DNA of 64,000 nt from an uncultured archaeon (GTDB lineage Archaea; Asgardarchaeota; Lokiarchaeia; Sigyniarchaeales; SOKP01). Where the stretch lies: the NCBI GenBank assembly GCA_964486045.1, contig CAZALK010000003.1, positions 160,001 to 224,000 of the forward strand, given 5' to 3'. The notes under the pieces are model-generated. The model did no database searches and had not been told where the DNA came from. It saw only the letters and a list, made by a program, of their open reading frames with translations. A program made the translations under genes and the position numbers. Below, in pieces: positions 9,287 to 29,864 of the stretch; the stretch's first letter is position 1; each line of letters starts with the position of its first letter.

Positions 9287-10525
9287 TTAATACAATGCTA
9301 AAATAACATCCTTAAGCTGATCAACAGTGGTATAATGATTTTTACCACCTGTTCTTAAATAGTCCATGGCATTTTCAATACCTTTGATACTGAGATGAAA
9401 GGTTGGAATAATCTTCGAGATTTTTAATTTAGTCCACGACATCCATTCAGGCCGGACTGGTTCAGGATTTATCCAAATAATATTTTTTTTAAAATGACTG
9501 GCAATTTCACTAATATAATAGATTCCTGACTTCTTGTTGCTTGCATCATCATATATAGCTCCATGTGGATTTACTAACTCACTTCGATACATAGTTTGAT
9601 CTCCCACAATTATAACTCTATAAGAATCATCATATTTTTTAAGGAAATCATCGAAGTCAATCGCTCGATCTGTATTTCTTTTAGCATCATGATATAAATA
9701 ATTATAAATACAATTGTGAAAGTAAAAATACTTGAAAACTTTCCAATGAGATATATTGTTCGCTGCTGAGAATAATAGATTTACTTGATAAATATATGGG
9801 TCCATCGTTCCACCAACGTCCATTAAAAGTAATAGCTTTACATTGTTTTTTTTCCTTTTACTGAAAAATAGCTCAATATCCCCACCATTTCTACCAGTTT
9901 CGTCAATAGTCTTCTTAAGATCTAATTCATCCTTTTTGCCAATTTCATCTAACCTCTTAAGTCTTTTCAACGCAATCTTTATTTGTCGTGTATCCATAAC
10001 TAAATCTTTCCTGTAATCTTGGAACATTCTTTTTTGGGCAATTTTTACTGCACTTTGCATTCCACCTTCACCTGCTATTCTAATACCCATTAAATTTTGA
10101 CCCATATTACCAAAGTTTGATTGACCAAGTGTACCTATCCATTGATCTCCAAAATTATGTTCCTCATCTTGCTCTTGAAGTAATTTTCTGAATTGTTCCT
10201 CTAATTCTTCTAAACTCATATTTGGAAACAATTTTTCAAAAACCGCGGGTAGTTGGAGAATTTTAATGTTTTTATTCAACCACTCCCAAATCTCTTGTTG
10301 GATCTCTTCAGGAAATTTAATTCCTGCATCCTTGAAAAAATTCGCGAAAGCGATGTCATAAATATCGAAATGGTGCTCATTGTGGCAGAGGATAGACCTT
10401 GATACATAATAAAATTCGACCATGTTCTTTATAAGCCCCTTATTGAGAGCCTCCAGCAAAGTTAGGTATTCAGTAATACTTACGGGTAAAATTTCACGAA
10501 GGTAATAAAAATAATCCAAGAACAT
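9287..10525 (-). CDS. VWA-domain protein (CoxE-like, MoxR partner family)
   Basis: LLLLMDVGGTMDP MIDAS-like motif, YFHNCIY, IIVGD, IWINP. Confidence 0.8.
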   Translation of the reverse strand: MFLDYFYYLREILPVSITEYLTLLEALNKGLIKNMVEFYYVSRSILCHNEHHFDIYDIAFANFFKDAGIKFPEEIQQEIWEWLNKNIKILQLPAVFEKLFPNMSLEELEEQFRKLLQEQDEEHNFGDQWIGTLGQSNFGNMGQNLMGIRIAGEGGMQSAVKIAQKRMFQDYRKDLVMDTRQIKIALKRLKRLDEIGKKDELDLKKTIDETGRNGGDIELFFSKRKKNNVKLLLLMDVGGTMDPYIYQVNLLFSAANNISHWKVFKYFYFHNCIYNYLYHDAKRNTDRAIDFDDFLKKYDDSYRVIIVGDQTMYRSELVNPHGAIYDDASNKKSGIYYISEIASHFKKNIIWINPEPVRPEWMSWTKLKISKIIPTFHLSIKGIENAMDYLRTGGKNHYTTVDQLKDVILALY

Positions 10526-25900: not shown

Positions 25901-27106
25901 ACGGTTACTCATGGTATTAAAGATAAAGTTGCAGTAATCGGCTGCGATGCCACTAAATTTGGTGAATTGTGGGATAAAAGCAAAGAAGATTTACTGTTTG
26001 AATCTACTCAAGGCGCTATTAAGGATGCAGGGATTAAAAAAGATGAAATTGATGCTGCATGGCTCGGAGTTTATTATTTTTTCACAGGTGTTTCTGGAAC
26101 CACATTGGAAGATTCATTAAGATTAGGTGGGAAGCCTATAACTAGAGTTGAAAATTATTGCGCAAGCGGAATGGAATCTATAATACTTCGTTATTGATAT
26201 TCAAACGCTTTCCGCAATGCTTGTTTTGGTGTGGCATCGGGAGCTTATGATGTGGCATTAGCTTGTGGTGTTGAAAAGCTAATGGATGAAGGTGGTAGAG
26301 GATTGCCTGGAACAACAGTAATGGGACATCCAGTATTACCACGACCTTCAGCACCAGCTATGTTTTGTTTATTAGCTACTCGTAGTTTTCATGAATTCGG
26401 TTGGAGAAAAGAAGATCTAGCTCGTGTAGCAGTTAAGAATCACGAAAATGGATTTTATCATCCAAAGGCTCATTTCAGAATGAAAATTACATTAGAACAA
26501 GCTATGAATGCCCCAATGATAGCAGATCCACTCGGACGATTTGATTGTTGCGCGATGAGTGATGGTTCTGCTGCATTAATCCTTACTCGACCTGAATTAG
26601 CAGAGTCTTATGCTCATGCTGACGATTATGTTCTTGTTAAATCAAACTCACTTTCAGTTCATTCGGCTTATCCATGGTATGATCCAAAGTTTGATTTTAT
26701 ATGTGCTCCAGCTACGATTGATGCAGCAAAAATGGCATATAAAGAAGCAAACATTACAAACCCAAGAAAAGAAATTGATTTAGCAGAAGTTCACGATTGT
26801 TTTACAATAACTGAGTTATTAAATTGCCAAGATCTACAACTATGTGATAGTGGGAAAGCTGCCGAAGAATTACAAAAAGGTACTTTTAATTGGGATGGTG
26901 AAACTGCGATAAATCCAAGTGGTGGCCTAAAATCTTTCGGGCATCCTATAGGGAGTACTGGTTGTAGGATGGTTCAAGAAGTTACTAAACAACTTCAAGG
27001 AAGAGCTGAGGGAAGACAAGTACCTGATGCAAAAACTGGATTAGCTCACAATCTTGGTGGGGCTTATGCTGTCTGTTCTGTGACTATTTTAGGGCAGAGA
27101 GATTAA
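25901..27106 (+). CDS. acetyl-CoA acetyltransferase (SCP2-type thiolase), join(25901..26174,26205..27106), 391 aa after splicing
   Basis: N-terminus xVTHGIKDKVAVIG; spliced RVENYCASGMDAFRNACFGVASG; EVHDCF, NPSGGLKSFGHPIG and AHNLGG motifs; starts at ACG. Confidence 0.9.
26175..26204 (+). other. 30-nt bulge-helix-bulge intron in the thiolase mRNA
   Basis: exon helix AAGCG/CGCUU, central helix GAAU/AUUC, bulges GGA and AAA, intron helix AUC/GAU + AUAA/UUAU; carries an in-frame TGA. Confidence 0.88.
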
Positions 27107-27294: not shown

Positions 27295-28178
27295 ATGAAT
27301 GAATCATTTAATAAATTTCAAGGAGACGTAAAAACCGATAATTTAAAGTATCTTGCAGATCCCCAACTTAGAAATATTGTAAATGTGTCTATTGCTTTAG
27401 AACGTCCCTTACTAGTAAAGGGAGAACCCGGAACCGGAAAAACTATGCTAGCTCACGCAATATCGCAGAGTTTGAGTAAAAAACTACTAATTTGGAATGT
27501 TAAAAGCACTACTGAGGCTATTGACGGGTGCTATATGTATGATACAGTTCAACGTTTAAATGATAGTAGATTTGGTTCAGAAGACCGAGACGTAAACAAA
27601 ATTCACGATTACATTACATTTGGTCCCCTTGGAGAAGCATTTGACGCTAACGAACAAGTTGTTCTCCTTATCGATGAGATCGATAAAGCAGATATAATGT
27701 CTAATAATAATTAGCATTACTGCATATTGAGTTTCCGAACGACTTGCTACAAGAATTAGATGTAATGGAGTTCTATGTAAAAGAGACAAAAGAATTTGTA
27801 AAAACTAAAAAGCGGCCAATAGTGATAATTACTTCGAATAATGAAAAAGAACTTCCAGATGCCTTCTTAAGAAGGTGTGTATTTCACTGGATTGAATTCC
27901 CTTCTAGAGGATTTATGACAGAAATATGTAATCTCCATTACCCAAATCTTAAAACAAATTTATTAGATCAATGTCTTAAACACTTTTATGCATTGCGCGC
28001 GATTACAAAACTTAGAAAATTGCCTTCTACTTCCGAACTCCTAGATTGGATTGGAGTACTTTTAAAAAGTGGGATTAGTATTGACCAATTAAAAAAAGAA
28101 ATTCCTTTCTTAGGTGTTCTCATAAAGAAAGAAAAGGATCTCGAATTTGCATTAGAAAAACTTAAATTTCCTTCATGA
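27295..28178 (+). CDS. MoxR-family AAA+ ATPase, join(27295..27693,27726..28178), 283 aa after splicing
   Basis: Walker A GEPGTGKT; spliced Walker B region LLIDEIDKADIEFPNDLLQELD; ITSNNEKELPDAFLRRC; PSTSELLDW. Confidence 0.9.
27694..27725 (+). other. 32-nt bulge-helix-bulge intron in the MoxR mRNA
   Basis: central helix GCAG/CUGC, bulges AUA and AUA, intron helices UAAUG/CAUUA and CUAAU/AUUAG; causes a TAG and a frameshift if unspliced. Confidence 0.88.
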
Positions 28179-28424: not shown

Positions 28425-29864
28425 TTAAAACCTCCCCCTAACTGGTCTACATTTCCAATAATAATTTTTAAATTCACCACCTTCATGCAGCCTTCGAAAT
28501 GTTAATTCAACTTCCGTTCCAATACGGACATTTTCTTCAGGGTTTTCGATTTCGGTCATATTTAACATAACTCGACCGCCACCATCCAAATCAATTACGC
28601 ATCTGGGAACTGGAGTATCATTATAAGCACCCCCTACTAAATGATCAAGAGAATATGTATAAATTTTACCTTTTAAAGCTAGTTTAATCAGTTCCAATTG
28701 GTCATCAGCCCTACATACGATACAAGAACGTGCTGTAGTGGGATACTGAATACTTCCACAGTTTTTACATTTAAGGCCATACATTTTATACACAGCAGGT
28801 GTATCTCGCCATAATGTTACAGCAGAACTTTTTCTTACATATCGGTCTTTTTCAAGAAGTTTTTTATTTTCAACGTAAACATTATAGTTTTTAAGAAGTT
28901 TCATTGATTGTTGATGTCCTGATAAGGCCATATGAGCTTGAGAAAGTTCTTTTAGAGCGTTTATATCATGAACGTGCAATAAAATCCCATCAGCACCATC
29001 ACCAAATCCAACTAACAATGCCTTTGCATTTTTTTTGGGATTTTTTAAGGCAGAGATTAATAATATAAAGGACATTGGAGTTCCGAGATCTCCAAATTGA
29101 AAGAAAAGTCCATTTTGAGCTACTCCCTGATTAAATTTCATCGCCTTTGAAACACGTCCATGTGTTCTAGGATTATTATAATAATATGCTGCGATATCAA
29201 TATCCTCAGGACTTAAGTCATTTCTTTCGATAATCTCAGACATTACTTTTGTAACACTTTGGGTATAAAATTGAGTATCCATTTTCGACTCAAAAGTTCT
29301 TATGAAGCTATCCTCCTTTGTTCTTTTCCACGGCCCTGTTACATTAGCCGAAATAGAATAATAGTCATCTATAACAAGTGGTAAATTTTCCCCTTCACTT
29401 AGGAGAAAAGCTGCAGCACCATCACCAAACGTAAATTCCCAAGTAGTAGCTGGCTCTGCTTCTCTCATATCTGAAGCAATAACAAGTATCTTTGAGACAT
29501 CCTTATTTGCTGTAATTGTGTCAACTGCTCTTGCTAACGCGGTTGTTCCTGCTTTTAGTGAGTCAGTGAAGTCTGCTGTTACAATATCTTCCCTTAAATC
29601 TAATACTGTTGCAATAAACGAGGAGGAATCCTTTTCAGTATACACTTGAGTAGTAGAGGCAAAAAATAAACCGTCAATACTTTTTGGATCAATTCCACTA
29701 AGACAATCTATACCAGCTTCAATAGCCATGGTAAGACTATCCTCATCTGCACTTGCAACAGCCTTGTTACCAGGAACAACAGGAAAATCCCAAGCTTTAG
29801 CGATCAACTCGCGAGGCATTACATACTTTGGTAAGTAAACACCATAAGATTTAATTCCAATCAT
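28425..29864 (-). CDS. HMG-CoA synthase-like + DUF35 (Zn ribbon/OB-fold) fusion protein, thiolase-associated
   Basis: MIGIKSYGVYLP...DEDSLTMA...GDGAAAF N-terminal domain; CKNCG...CIVC, GKIYTYS, VELTFRR, YYWK. Confidence 0.85.
   Translation of the reverse strand: MIGIKSYGVYLPKYVMPRELIAKAWDFPVVPGNKAVASADEDSLTMAIEAGIDCLSGIDPKSIDGLFFASTTQVYTEKDSSSFIATVLDLREDIVTADFTDSLKAGTTALARAVDTITANKDVSKILVIASDMREAEPATTWEFTFGDGAAAFLLSEGENLPLVIDDYYSISANVTGPWKRTKEDSFIRTFESKMDTQFYTQSVTKVMSEIIERNDLSPEDIDIAAYYYNNPRTHGRVSKAMKFNQGVAQNGLFFQFGDLGTPMSFILLISALKNPKKNAKALLVGFGDGADGILLHVHDINALKELSQAHMALSGHQQSMKLLKNYNVYVENKKLLEKDRYVRKSSAVTLWRDTPAVYKMYGLKCKNCGSIQYPTTARSCIVCRADDQLELIKLALKGKIYTYSLDHLVGGAYNDTPVPRCVIDLDGGGRVMLNMTEIENPEENVRIGTEVELTFRRLHEGGEFKNYYWKCRPVRGRF

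What the first reader, a model, noticed from the sequence alone, without database searches (positions are those of the whole stretch)
27694..27725. 32-nt frameshifting BHB intron immediately after Walker B of a MoxR AAA+ ATPase
Intron ATAATGTCTAATAATAATTAGCATTACTGCAT. Pairings: central helix GCAG(27688-91)/CTGC(27720-23); bulges ATA(27692-94) and ATA(27724-26); intron helices TAATG/CATTA and CTAAT/ATTAG. The exon helix is only about 2 bp (AA/TT), so this is a relaxed form on the exon side. Splicing gives DEIDKAD|IEFPNDLLQELD and a 283-aa protein. Because 32 is not a multiple of 3, stop-codon readthrough cannot explain it. A likely partner VWA gene (9287..10525) is intact, which argues that the ATPase is still functional.
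Basis: partly seen in the sequence, partly recalled or inferred. Interest (0 to 1): 0.92.

Follow-up and report, generated by a model that had tools for sequence, protein, structure and literature searches.

The report
tRNA-type mini-intron in Asgard ATPase gene
A 32-base insert that breaks a highly conserved ATPase gene of a Lokiarchaeon (an Asgard archaeon) has the exact RNA shape cut by the tRNA-splicing enzyme and is kept in related species by compensating mutations, so it is very probably an intron spliced out of the messenger RNA, a kind proven so far for only one archaeal gene (cbf5).

Summary
The window comes from a 5.18-Mb Lokiarchaeia (Promethearchaeota) genome with 32% GC. A MoxR-type AAA+ gene (27295-28178, + strand) is broken by 32 nt at 27694-27725. 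Removing exactly these bases gives a 283-aa protein that aligns without a gap to 283/284-aa orthologs at 84-89% identity.

The insert folds as a bulge-helix-bulge (BHB):
- a 4-bp central helix, 27688-91 with 27720-23;
- two 3-nt bulges;
- a 5+5-bp intron hairpin;
- an exon helix of only 2 bp.

About 95 orthologs in the family lack the insert. Twelve metagenome contigs and four MAG contigs carry inserts of 29-32 nt at the same codon. These fall into three unrelated sequence types, and each pairs with the exon. The same gene has two further BHB insert sites (codons 46 and 88) in other lineages.

Evidence that the gene still works:
- Helices are kept by compensatory changes (92-93% of cells paired).
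- Both exons are under strong purifying selection in insert-bearing lineages (dN/dS 0.03-0.08).
- The insert is far more conserved than four-fold sites.
- The genome encodes two EndA paralogs and RtcB.
- At least five other genes carry such inserts, including single-copy RNA polymerase A'.

No RNA data could be obtained, so splicing itself is inferred. This scan has reported the same kind of intron in other Asgard genomes. The papers I could search report it only for cbf5.

The parts
27295..27693 (+). Exon 1 of the MoxR-type AAA+ ATPase gene (133 codons; Walker A GEPGTGKT, Walker B LLIDE, ends ...DKAD)
   Evidence: ORF list and translation. Pfam AAA and AAA_5 hits. 84-89% identity to 283/284-aa proteins that their sources name MoxR family ATPase.
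27694..27725 (+). 32-nt intron (BHB type). It carries the in-frame TAG at 27712-14 and shifts the frame by +2.
   Evidence: Unique in the 5.18-Mb genome. Absent from about 95 orthologs in the family and present in type-A form in 9 other contigs.
27688..27691 (+). Central helix, 5' strand (GCAG, exon 1: Ala codon plus the first base of the Asp codon)
   Evidence: Pairs with 27720-23. The A-U pair becomes C-G in the type-B lineage through a synonymous GCA to GCC change together with T to G in the insert.
27692..27694 (+). 5' bulge ATA; predicted cut between 27693 and 27694
   Evidence: Unpaired in the MFE fold. Cutting after the second bulge base restores the frame.
27695..27719 (+). Intron hairpin (h'): TAATG/CATTA, a bulged T at 27700, CTAAT/ATTAG, loop AATA
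   Evidence: 95.6% of cells are paired, and 6 of 9 pairs show changes on both sides across types A and B.
27720..27723 (+). Central helix, 3' strand (CTGC, intron)
   Evidence: The C>T variant at 27723 (G-C to G-U) appears in six cold-seep contigs and several loci.
27724..27726 (+). 3' bulge ATA; predicted cut between 27725 and 27726
   Evidence: In the MFE fold only A27724 is unpaired, because U27725 and A27726 join the weak exon helix.
27726..28178 (+). Exon 2 (150 codons plus stop): IEFPNDLLQELD..., sensor and Arg-finger region, C-terminal lid
   Evidence: No start codon lies between the insert and the invariant IEFPND codons, which vary only synonymously among insert-bearing genes. dN/dS is 0.03-0.06.
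27686..27687 (+). Exon (outer) helix, 5' strand AA, pairing with TT at 27727-28. Only 2 bp, so this is the relaxed HBh' form.
   Evidence: Pair 8-48 is invariant and pair 7-49 is kept in 6 of 10 sequences.
26175..26204 (+). Second insert of the same kind in the neighbouring thiolase gene: 30 nt, central helix GAAT/ATTC, bulges GGA and AAA, 5-bp exon helix
   Evidence: The two halves match Thiolase_N positions 1-89 and 94-258.

Best explanation
The 32 nt at 27694-27725 are an archaeal bulge-helix-bulge (BHB) intron inside the coding sequence of a functional MoxR-type AAA+ ATPase gene.

Proposed mechanism:
1. In the pre-mRNA, exon bases GCAG (27688-91) pair with intron bases CUGC (27720-23). This forms the 4-bp central helix.
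2. The helix is flanked by two 3-nt bulges on opposite strands and by a 5+5-bp intron hairpin. The exon-exon helix is only 2 bp, which makes this the relaxed HBh' form.
3. The host's two-subunit splicing endonuclease (EndA alpha and beta) cuts after the second base of each bulge: 27693|27694 and 27725|27726.
4. RtcB joins the exons, giving an mRNA for the 283-aa ATPase. The 32-nt intron is released, probably as a circle.

Shown: the structure, its conservation and covariation, exact restoration of the protein, purifying selection on both exons and on the intron, and presence of the enzymes.

Inferred: cleavage and ligation themselves, and whether splicing is constitutive or regulated.

The intron belongs to a sparse set of 29-32-nt BHB inserts in protein-coding genes of this genome. 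A 400-kb comparison with a relative found them in about 1% of genes.
For: (1) Precise restoration. Removal gives a 283-aa protein that aligns without a gap through the invariant DEIDKADIEFPNDLLQELD motif.

(2) Geometry. The BHB is reproduced by the MFE fold at z = -3.5. Only 0.11% of shuffled inserts meet the criterion.

(3) Recurrence.
- An exon-flank pattern that says nothing about structure found 12 metagenome contigs and 4 MAG contigs with 29-32-nt inserts at this codon.
- These fall into three sequence-unrelated types. Their central helices are GCAG/CTGC or CTGT (type A), GCCG/CGGA (type B), and AAGC/GCTT or GTTT with the register shifted by 2 nt (type C).
- All three give the same spliced codons.

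(4) Covariation.
- Site 3: 92% of cells are paired, against 23-51% when the partner is slid, and 7 of 15 pairs change on both sides.
- Site 2 (codon 88): 93% paired, against 17-57% when slid, and 7 of 12 pairs change on both sides. Two of these are central-helix pairs that change together with synonymous exon changes.

(5) The gene is alive.
- All 15 insert-bearing genes aligned (14 relatives' contigs plus the window's gene) have no stop or frameshift once the inserts are removed.
- dN/dS between insert-bearing lineages is 0.03-0.08 in both exons, the same as in insert-free pairs.

(6) The intron is under constraint. Identity is 84-97% (type A) and 90-94% (type B) between genes whose four-fold sites are only 36-61% identical.

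(7) Machinery.
- Two EndA paralogs are present, each with both the N and C domains. By my reading of the translations, one keeps the catalytic Tyr/His/Lys and the other lacks the His.
- One RtcB is present.
- Asgard EndA has been described as (alpha-beta)2 with the L1 loop, which is associated with cleavage of relaxed motifs (PMC5829648).

(8) Necessity in the same genome. Single-copy RNA polymerase A' is split by a 30-nt BHB insert inside CMGHFGH|IELARP. Thiolase, an AMP-phosphorylase-like gene and a Ras-family GTPase carry 30-nt inserts with stop codons.
Against: - No RNA evidence. No RNA-seq run holding this organism was listed, so neither the spliced junction nor the excised intron has been seen.
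- The exon helix is only 2 bp. In the MFE fold the 3' bulge shrinks to one base, so cleavage needs a broad-specificity endonuclease. That specificity was not tested for this organism's enzyme.
- Type B has a G-A mismatch in the outermost central pair.
- My genome-wide scan for 'BHB motif plus ORF fusion' showed no excess over a mirrored-geometry decoy. The motif alone therefore has little predictive power in this AT-rich genome, and the case rests on homology and covariation.
- The covariation comes from few independent lineages, and the structure was derived from these same sequences.
Confidence: 0.85

Rival explanations
1. Translational bypass. The insert stays in the mRNA and the ribosome hops over it, as in phage T4 gene 60 or the 27-55-nt 'byp' elements of Magnusiomyces mitochondria (both recalled from my own knowledge).
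For: The size (29-32 nt), the hairpin and the in-frame stop soon after the take-off region resemble bypass elements. Without RNA data, a removal step at translation cannot be formally excluded. Purifying selection on the exons fits this reading as well.
Against: - Bypass needs matching take-off and landing triplets. Here the last exon-1 codon is GAT, but the triplet before the resumption codon is CAT, TAT, TAA or TAG in type A and AAT or AAA in types B and C.
- The conserved, covarying feature is a 4-bp helix between exon bases and the 3' end of the insert, with 3-nt bulges at both junctions. That is the recognition element of EndA, not of a hopping ribosome.
- The same geometry is found at three sites in this gene and in unrelated genes.
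Confidence: 0.07
2. Inactivating insertion. The gene is a pseudogene broken by a small palindromic element or MITE footprint, with AT/AT microhomology at its ends.
For: The insert is an inverted repeat flanked by short direct repeats (five equivalent registers). It introduces a stop and a frameshift. Most orthologs lack it.
Against: - Both exons are intact and under dN/dS 0.03-0.08 in 15 insert-bearing genes, although these have diverged to saturation at synonymous sites.
- The insert is unique in the genome.
- It is more conserved than four-fold sites.
- Its 3' end tracks synonymous changes in the exon.
- The essential single-copy rpoA1 carries the same kind of insert.
Confidence: 0.03
3. Programmed ribosomal frameshifting or stop-codon read-through produces the full-length protein with about 10 extra residues.
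For: Exon 2 lies in the -1 (+2) frame relative to exon 1.
Against: - The exon-1 frame stops at 27712-14, and the exon-2 frame has TAA TAA TAA at 27702-10. The two frames are therefore simultaneously open over a single nucleotide.
- Inserts at site 2 and in other genes are in frame with internal stops, so one mechanism could not serve them all.
- Ten extra residues between Walker B and the invariant IEFPND motif are absent from all orthologs.
Confidence: 0.01
4. Assembly or sequencing artefact in this MAG.
For: The genome is a metagenome bin with 7.8% estimated contamination.
Against: - Near-identical or related inserts at the same codon occur in 12 metagenome contigs from several projects and in 4 other MAGs.
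- They also occur in contigs of an independent cold-seep run (a 96-nt contig spanning 27675-27770, and C>T at 27723 in six contigs).
Confidence: 0.01

Closest known systems
BHB intron in the cbf5 (pseudouridine synthase) pre-mRNA of Crenarchaeota (Aeropyrum, Sulfolobus, Desulfurococcales; Watanabe 2002, Yoshinari 2006, Yokobori 2009 = PMC2738675)
   Same: - A short intervening sequence inside an archaeal protein-coding gene that folds into a bulge-helix-bulge at the exon-intron junctions.
- Removal by the tRNA-splicing endonuclease and ligase restores the frame.
- Patchy distribution, with lineage-specific loss.
- The hosts have hetero-oligomeric EndA.
   Different: - A different gene (MoxR-type AAA+ ATPase) and a different phylum (Lokiarchaeia, Asgard).
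- Here splicing is inferred, not shown.
- The gene has three intron sites in different lineages, and the same site holds three unrelated intron sequences.
- The host carries such inserts in several other genes, including rpoA1. For cbf5, papers up to 2025 still cite a single gene.
Non-canonical (relaxed HBh') tRNA introns of Thermoproteota and Asgard archaea, cut by (alpha-beta)2 EndA with the L1 loop
   Same: - The same motif: a 4-bp helix, 3-nt bulges and one weak flanking helix.
- The same presumed enzymes.
- Asgard tRNA genes are reported as heavily interrupted (preprint 10.64898/2026.10.13.758758). ARAGORN finds only 31 tRNA genes here and marks 20 with introns.
   Different: [quoted passage not shown]
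- No tRNA body is available to help recognition.
HAC1/XBP1 unconventional mRNA splicing in eukaryotes (Ire1 cleavage, tRNA-ligase or RtcB joining)
   Same: A short frame-shifting intron (26 nt in XBP1) is removed from a cytoplasmic mRNA without a spliceosome and joined by the tRNA ligase. The unspliced form gives a truncated product. This rests on my own knowledge and on abstracts listed.
   Different: - The nuclease is Ire1, which recognises twin stem-loops, not EndA recognising a BHB.
- That splicing is a regulated stress switch. No evidence for regulation exists here.
Translational bypass elements (T4 gene 60; mitochondrial 'byps' of Magnusiomyces)
   Same: Structured inserts of 27-55 nt carrying stop codons inside otherwise intact coding sequences (my own knowledge).
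   Different: - Bypass elements need matching take-off and landing codons, which are absent here.
- They do not need an exon-intron 4-bp helix with symmetric 3-nt bulges, which is present and covaries here.

Membership tests
Archaeal BHB (EndA/RtcB-dependent) intron in a pre-mRNA | [quoted passage not shown] | tested here: met
   GCAG 27688-91 pairs with CTGC 27720-23, with ATA bulges at 27692-94 and 27724-26. The same geometry holds in 16 of 17 variants at the three sites of this gene; type B has one G-A mismatch.
Archaeal BHB (EndA/RtcB-dependent) intron in a pre-mRNA | Cutting after the second base of each bulge yields a functional, in-frame exon junction | tested here: met
   Joining 27693 to 27726 gives a 283-aa protein that aligns without a gap to orthologs through an invariant motif.
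Archaeal BHB (EndA/RtcB-dependent) intron in a pre-mRNA | Flanking helices h (exon-exon) and h' (intron) of the canonical hBHBh' motif | tested here: inconclusive
   h' is strong (5+5 bp). h is only 2 bp, with one pair invariant and the other kept in 6 of 10 sequences. This is the relaxed HBh' form, which is accepted only by broad-specificity EndA types (PMC5829648).
Archaeal BHB (EndA/RtcB-dependent) intron in a pre-mRNA | The structure is maintained by compensatory substitutions in relatives | tested here: met
   92% of cells are paired (23-51% when slid), and 7 of 15 pairs change on both sides. At site 2, 93% are paired and 7 of 12 pairs change on both sides. Caveat: few lineages, and the structure was derived from the same sequences.
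Archaeal BHB (EndA/RtcB-dependent) intron in a pre-mRNA | The host encodes a splicing endonuclease able to cut relaxed motifs, and an RtcB ligase | tested here: met
   Two PF01974/PF02778 proteins of 200-201 aa (C7:36595, C10:137165) and one RtcB (C1:512216) are present. The two-subunit architecture is inferred. The L1 specificity loop and the enzyme activity were not tested.
Archaeal BHB (EndA/RtcB-dependent) intron in a pre-mRNA | Excision demonstrated on RNA (spliced junction, excised or circular intron) | not testable with these tools
   No RNA run holding this sequence was listed. Only DNA contigs could be laid.
MoxR-type AAA+ ATPase (host gene) | A single AAA+ module with Walker A, Walker B and the DEIDKA...LL.ELD segment, about 280-320 aa | tested here: met
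   Pfam AAA and AAA_5 match exon 1. Identity is 84-89% to 283/284-aa proteins that NCBI and JGI name MoxR family ATPase. The motifs are intact after removal of the insert.
MoxR-type AAA+ ATPase (host gene) | An adjacent VWA-domain partner gene | tested here: not met
   No VWA gene is adjacent. The flanking genes are a thiolase and an HMGCS-DUF35-like gene. A VWA_CoxE-like ORF lies 17 kb away on the other strand (28.7 bits against a 26.4 cut-off), and its partnership was not tested.

The most novel reading that the evidence does not exclude
Lokiarchaeia maintain a genome-wide population of 29-32-nt endonuclease-spliced introns in mRNAs.
- They occupy about 1% of genes in this genome, including RNA polymerase A'.
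- They are gained and lost between species.
- They recur at the same codons with unrelated sequences.
- They sit preferentially in the most conserved catalytic motifs: Walker A, Walker B, the thiolase Cys loop and the GTPase G3 motif.

This pattern would mean active intron spread into preferred 'proto-splice' sites, for example by reversal of the EndA/ligase reaction followed by reverse transcription. Alternatively, it would mean regulated on/off splicing of enzymes. Either way, it would be a protein-enzyme-based mRNA intron economy in the closest archaeal relatives of eukaryotes, existing before the spliceosome.
Probability: 0.25. Interest if true: 0.93.

Novelty: new member of a known kind. 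Interest (0 to 1): 0.8.

Why it matters
BHB introns in archaeal coding sequences are documented experimentally for one gene only, cbf5, and only in Crenarchaeota. Papers up to 2025 still cite only that case. I found no paper describing such introns in Asgard mRNAs.

If this intron is spliced, three things follow.
1. Annotation. Asgard genomes are systematically mis-annotated, because intact genes are called as two truncated ORFs or as pseudogenes. This affects essential genes such as rpoA1.
2. Enzyme role. The tRNA-splicing endonuclease and RtcB pathway has a general mRNA-processing role in the lineage closest to eukaryotes. This bears on how interrupted genes and non-spliceosomal mRNA splicing (HAC1/XBP1-like) arose.
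3. Intron dynamics. The MoxR gene has three sites, several independent sequence types, and presence or absence among close species. This makes it a compact system for studying intron gain, loss and exon-intron co-evolution.

The claim can be tested directly with one RT-PCR or one in-vitro cleavage assay.

Tried and rejected
1. RNA evidence. No RNA holder was listed for the 1.1-kb stretch or for the gene alone.

2. Genome-wide census by motif.
- I scanned both strands for 'BHB geometry plus fusion of two open frames', using a mirrored-bulge decoy.
- There was no excess at any stringency: 5064 against 5013 hits, 28 against 31 at strict settings, and 1906 against 1961 with short flanks.
- Requiring the MFE fold to reproduce the motif left 3 against 2.
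- The scan does recover true cases (MoxR, thiolase, rpoA1, a PurM-like gene). It also recovers clear false ones: real coding sequence of a DEAD-box helicase and of ornithine carbamoyltransferase.
- The motif alone is not predictive in this AT-rich genome, so no census was obtained this way.

3. Census by homology, on a sample only.
- I compared 400 kb of a complete same-genus genome (G091) with G000.
- Three of roughly 300 orthologous genes in G000 carry 30-32-nt inserts: MoxR, an AMP-phosphorylase-like gene and a Ras-family GTPase.
- None was found in the G091 segment.
- The 'dense system' of some first-stage notes therefore looks more like about 1% of genes. Introns shared by both genomes would be missed.

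4. The repeat or MITE idea was rejected, because the insert has no second copy in the genome.

5. Known RNA families: nothing in Rfam covers the insert. ARAGORN finds no tRNA in the window.

6. Frameshifting, read-through and a split-protein reading were all rejected from the sequence. The two frames do not overlap open, and the invariant IEFPND codons have no start codon upstream.

7. I did not fold the protein or test the MoxR-VWA pairing. Neither bears on the intron.
Full report
**What is there**

The window is G000:C3:160001-224000 of a 5.18-Mb, 45-contig genome with 32% GC. The best protein matches are named Lokiarchaeota, Promethearchaeota or Thorarchaeota, so the organism is a Lokiarchaeia-type Asgard archaeon.

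On the + strand, an ORF from ATG 27295 reads through Walker A (GEPGTGKT) and Walker B (LLIDE) to ...DKAD. It then runs into IMSNNN and TAG at 27712-14. A second frame, shifted by +2, is open from 27711 and reads ...IEFPNDLLQELD... to the stop at 28176-78. The first half matches Pfam AAA and AAA_5.

Deleting exactly 27694-27725 (32 nt) gives a 283-aa protein. This protein aligns without any gap to eleven 283/284-aa orthologs, straight through the invariant DEIDKADIEFPNDLLQELD segment. The orthologs are 84-89% identical to it, and their sources name them MoxR family or AAA family ATPases.

**The structure**

- central helix GCAG 27688-91 with CTGC 27720-23;
- 5' bulge ATA 27692-94;
- inner helices TAATG/CATTA and CTAAT/ATTAG, with a bulged T and an AATA loop;
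- 3' bulge ATA 27724-26;
- a 2-bp exon helix, AA 27686-87 with TT 27727-28.

RNAfold of 27676-27742 returns the central helix, the 5' bulge and the hairpin as the minimum-energy and centroid structure. The energy is -16.1 kcal/mol, z = -3.5, and 1 of 200 shuffles folds as well. In that fold the 3' bulge is reduced to one base, because two bulge bases extend the weak exon helix.

The arrangement matches the geometry of archaeal tRNA introns: on each strand, a flanking helix, then four central bases, then a 3-nt bulge, then the other flanking helix. Cutting after the second bulge base on both sides gives the junction 27693|27726. Five registers would give the same mRNA.

Shuffled inserts of the same composition meet a simple criterion in 0.11% of trials. 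The criterion is 4/4 central pairs plus at least 3 adjacent inner pairs, in a register that gives the observed product.

**It is not an artefact, a repeat or a known RNA**

The insert has no second copy in the genome. It matches no Rfam family.

In DNA contigs of other metagenomes, relatives either skip exactly these 32 nt or carry them with small changes. One 96-nt cold-seep contig spans 27675-27770, and six contigs have C>T at 27723, which turns G-C into G-U.

**Relatives**

Of 135 genomes in the family, 100 have the gene. About 95 of these have an uninterrupted frame of about 288 codons. Five carry an insert at this codon: G000, G115 and G041 in the same genus, and G015 and G037 in another genus.

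I then searched with a pattern built only from the exon flanks, with a free gap of 26-40 nt. It found 12 metagenome contigs and 4 MAG contigs.

The inserts fall into three types that are not alignable with each other:

| Type | Length | Central helix | Where |
|---|---|---|---|
| A | 32 nt | GCAG/CTGC or CTGT | The window and its genus |
| B | 31 nt | GCCG/CGGA | The second genus |
| C | 29-31 nt | AAGC/GCTT or GTTT | Two metagenome contigs |

- In type B, the exon Ala codon is GCC instead of GCA and the insert has G instead of T opposite it. This is a compensatory A-U to C-G change. The outermost pair is a G-A mismatch.
- In type C, the whole motif is shifted 2 nt upstream, and there is a 9-bp hairpin and a 6-bp exon helix.

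All three types give the same spliced codons.

The same gene has two more insert sites in other lineages:
- Codon 46, inside Walker A (GEPG|TGKT): 31 nt, central helix CTGG/CCAG.
- Codon 88 (RLN|DSR): 30 nt, in frame with stops, central helix GATT/GATC or GGCT/GGCT.

Individual genes carry one, two or all three inserts.

**Covariation**

Pair counts on the named BHB structure:

| Site | Cells paired | When partner is slid | Pairs changed on both sides |
|---|---|---|---|
| Site 3 (types A+B, 10 sequences) | 92% | 23-51% | 7 of 15 |
| Site 2 (5 sequences) | 93% | 17-57% | 7 of 12 |

In both cases no shuffle of 500 reached the observed pairing or covariation score.

At site 2, two of the pairs that change lie in the central helix. 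There, synonymous exon changes (AGA TTA to AGG CTA) are matched in the insert.

Caveats: few independent lineages are involved, and the structure was derived from these same sequences.

**Selection**

After removal of the inserts, all 15 insert-bearing genes aligned (14 relatives' contigs plus the window's gene) are free of stops and frameshifts.

Nei-Gojobori dN/dS between insert-bearing lineages is 0.03-0.08 overall and 0.03-0.06 in exon 2. Examples:
- Window against L045: dN 0.049, dS 0.88.
- Window against L050: dN 0.086, dS above 2.

Insert-free pairs give 0.02-0.05.

The six codons directly after the insert (IEFPND) vary only synonymously and have no start codon upstream of them. They must therefore be translated as a continuation of exon 1.

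The insert itself is 84-97% identical (type A) or 90-94% identical (type B) between genes whose four-fold degenerate sites are only 36-61% identical. The insert is therefore under constraint of its own, or it has spread more recently than the genes diverged.

On the protein tree, insert-bearing and insert-free genes are interspersed. This implies repeated loss or gain.

**Machinery and context in the same genome**

- Two proteins of 200-201 aa each carry both tRNA-intron-endonuclease domains. In my reading of their sequences, one keeps the catalytic Tyr/His/Lys and the other lacks the His. That is the pattern expected for the alpha and beta subunits.
- One RtcB is present.
- Kaneta et al. 2018 describe Asgard EndA as (alpha-beta)2 with the L1 loop, which is associated with cleavage of relaxed motifs (PMC5829648).
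- ARAGORN finds only 31 tRNA genes and marks 20 with introns. This fits a recent preprint on heavily interrupted Asgard tRNA genes.

Other genes of G000 carry inserts of the same kind:
- The neighbouring thiolase, at window 26175-26204: 30 nt with a canonical motif and a 5-bp exon helix. Its two halves match Thiolase_N positions 1-89 and 94-258.
- Single-copy RNA polymerase A', at C13:44101: 30 nt inside CMGHFGH|IELARP.
- A PurM-like gene, at C5:195271.

An unbiased comparison with 400 kb of a complete same-genus genome added two more:
- an AMP-phosphorylase-like gene (C7:186752, minus strand);
- a Ras-family GTPase (C1, near 354341).

In that sample, 3 of roughly 300 orthologous genes are interrupted in G000. 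None is interrupted in the relative's segment.

**Alternatives**

- Frameshifting or read-through is excluded for this allele. The exon-2 frame has three stops at 27702-10 and the exon-1 frame stops at 27712-14.
- The pseudogene reading is contradicted by the selection data.
- An artefact is contradicted by the independent contigs.
- Translational bypass is the only serious rival without RNA data. However, there are no matching take-off and landing triplets. The conserved and covarying element is the exon-intron helix with symmetric 3-nt bulges, which is what EndA recognises.

**What did not work**

My motif-based genome scan showed no excess over a mirrored decoy. The BHB motif alone is too weak a signal in a 32% GC genome. 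A census needs homology.

**Comparison with the literature**

The papers I could search report spliced BHB introns in archaeal coding sequences only for cbf5 of Crenarchaeota. None of seven searches found such introns described for Asgard mRNAs.

Earlier agents of this scan reported the same kind of intron in other Asgard genomes: thioredoxin, mevalonate kinase, cooS, thiolase, aIF2-gamma, rpoA2 and a MoxR gene with a site near codon 50. I treat these as leads, not as evidence. I re-derived the thiolase, rpoA1, Ras-GTPase and MoxR site-1 cases myself.

**Verdict**

- This is a new member of a known kind (an EndA-type intron in a pre-mRNA), found in a new gene and phylum, with unusually rich comparative support.
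- Splicing itself remains to be shown on RNA.

Noticed in passing
window 26175-26204 (thiolase gene, about 25901-27106, + strand): A second 30-nt BHB insert lies 1.5 kb upstream, four codons after the catalytic Cys (CASGM|DAFRNA). It has central helix GAAT/ATTC, bulges GGA and AAA, and a 5-bp exon helix. The two halves match consecutive parts of Pfam Thiolase_N (1-89 and 94-258).
   Followed up: partly
G000:C13:44101-44130 (+), outside the window: The single-copy RNA polymerase A' gene is split by a 30-nt insert with an in-frame stop inside CMGHFGH|IELARP. It has central helix GGAC/GTCT and a 9-bp hairpin. An essential gene therefore depends on removal of such an insert.
   Followed up: partly
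G000:C7:186752 (-), G000:C1 about 354341 (+), G000:C5:195271 (+), G000:C18:43581 (-): Further 30-nt inserts with stop codons occur in an AMP-phosphorylase-like gene, a Ras-family GTPase (after WDFAGE, the G3 motif), a PurM-like gene and a zinc-ribbon gene. The first two were found by homology to an insert-free relative without using structure. The GTPase insert has an internal loop instead of a helix next to the central helix.
   Followed up: partly
L038:2650-2708, L052:3825-3883 (site 1); L033:1082-1139, L048:222-279 and others (site 2): In other Lokiarchaeia the same MoxR gene carries BHB inserts inside Walker A (codon 46, 31 nt) and at codon 88 (30 nt). Single genes hold one to three inserts. 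Inserts sit at the most conserved motifs in several genes, and whether that is a detection bias is open.
   Followed up: partly
site 3 inserts, loci L001, L036, L041, L045, L050, L051, L052, L042: The insert sequence, including its loop, is 84-97% identical between genes whose four-fold sites are only 36-61% identical. A hairpin constraint alone may not explain this. Recent lateral spread or gene conversion of the intron, or a function for the excised RNA, remain open.
   Followed up: no
whole genome G000: ARAGORN finds only 31 tRNA genes in a 99%-complete genome and marks 20 of them with introns, some of which are clearly spurious calls. The tRNA set is probably heavily interrupted and largely invisible to standard tools.
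   Followed up: no
window 9287-10525 (-): An intact 412-aa ORF has a VWA_CoxE match just above the Pfam cut-off (28.7 against 26.4 bits). It lies 17 kb from the MoxR gene on the other strand. In other Lokiarchaeia, scan notes describe MoxR and VWA genes as adjacent. Here the pair appears separated.
   Followed up: partly
window 28425-29864 (-) and 25901-27106 (+): An HMG-CoA-synthase-like gene fused to a DUF35-type zinc-ribbon/OB domain, together with the thiolase, flank the MoxR gene. This is the archaeal thiolase/HMGCS/DUF35 module in a rearranged form.
   Followed up: no
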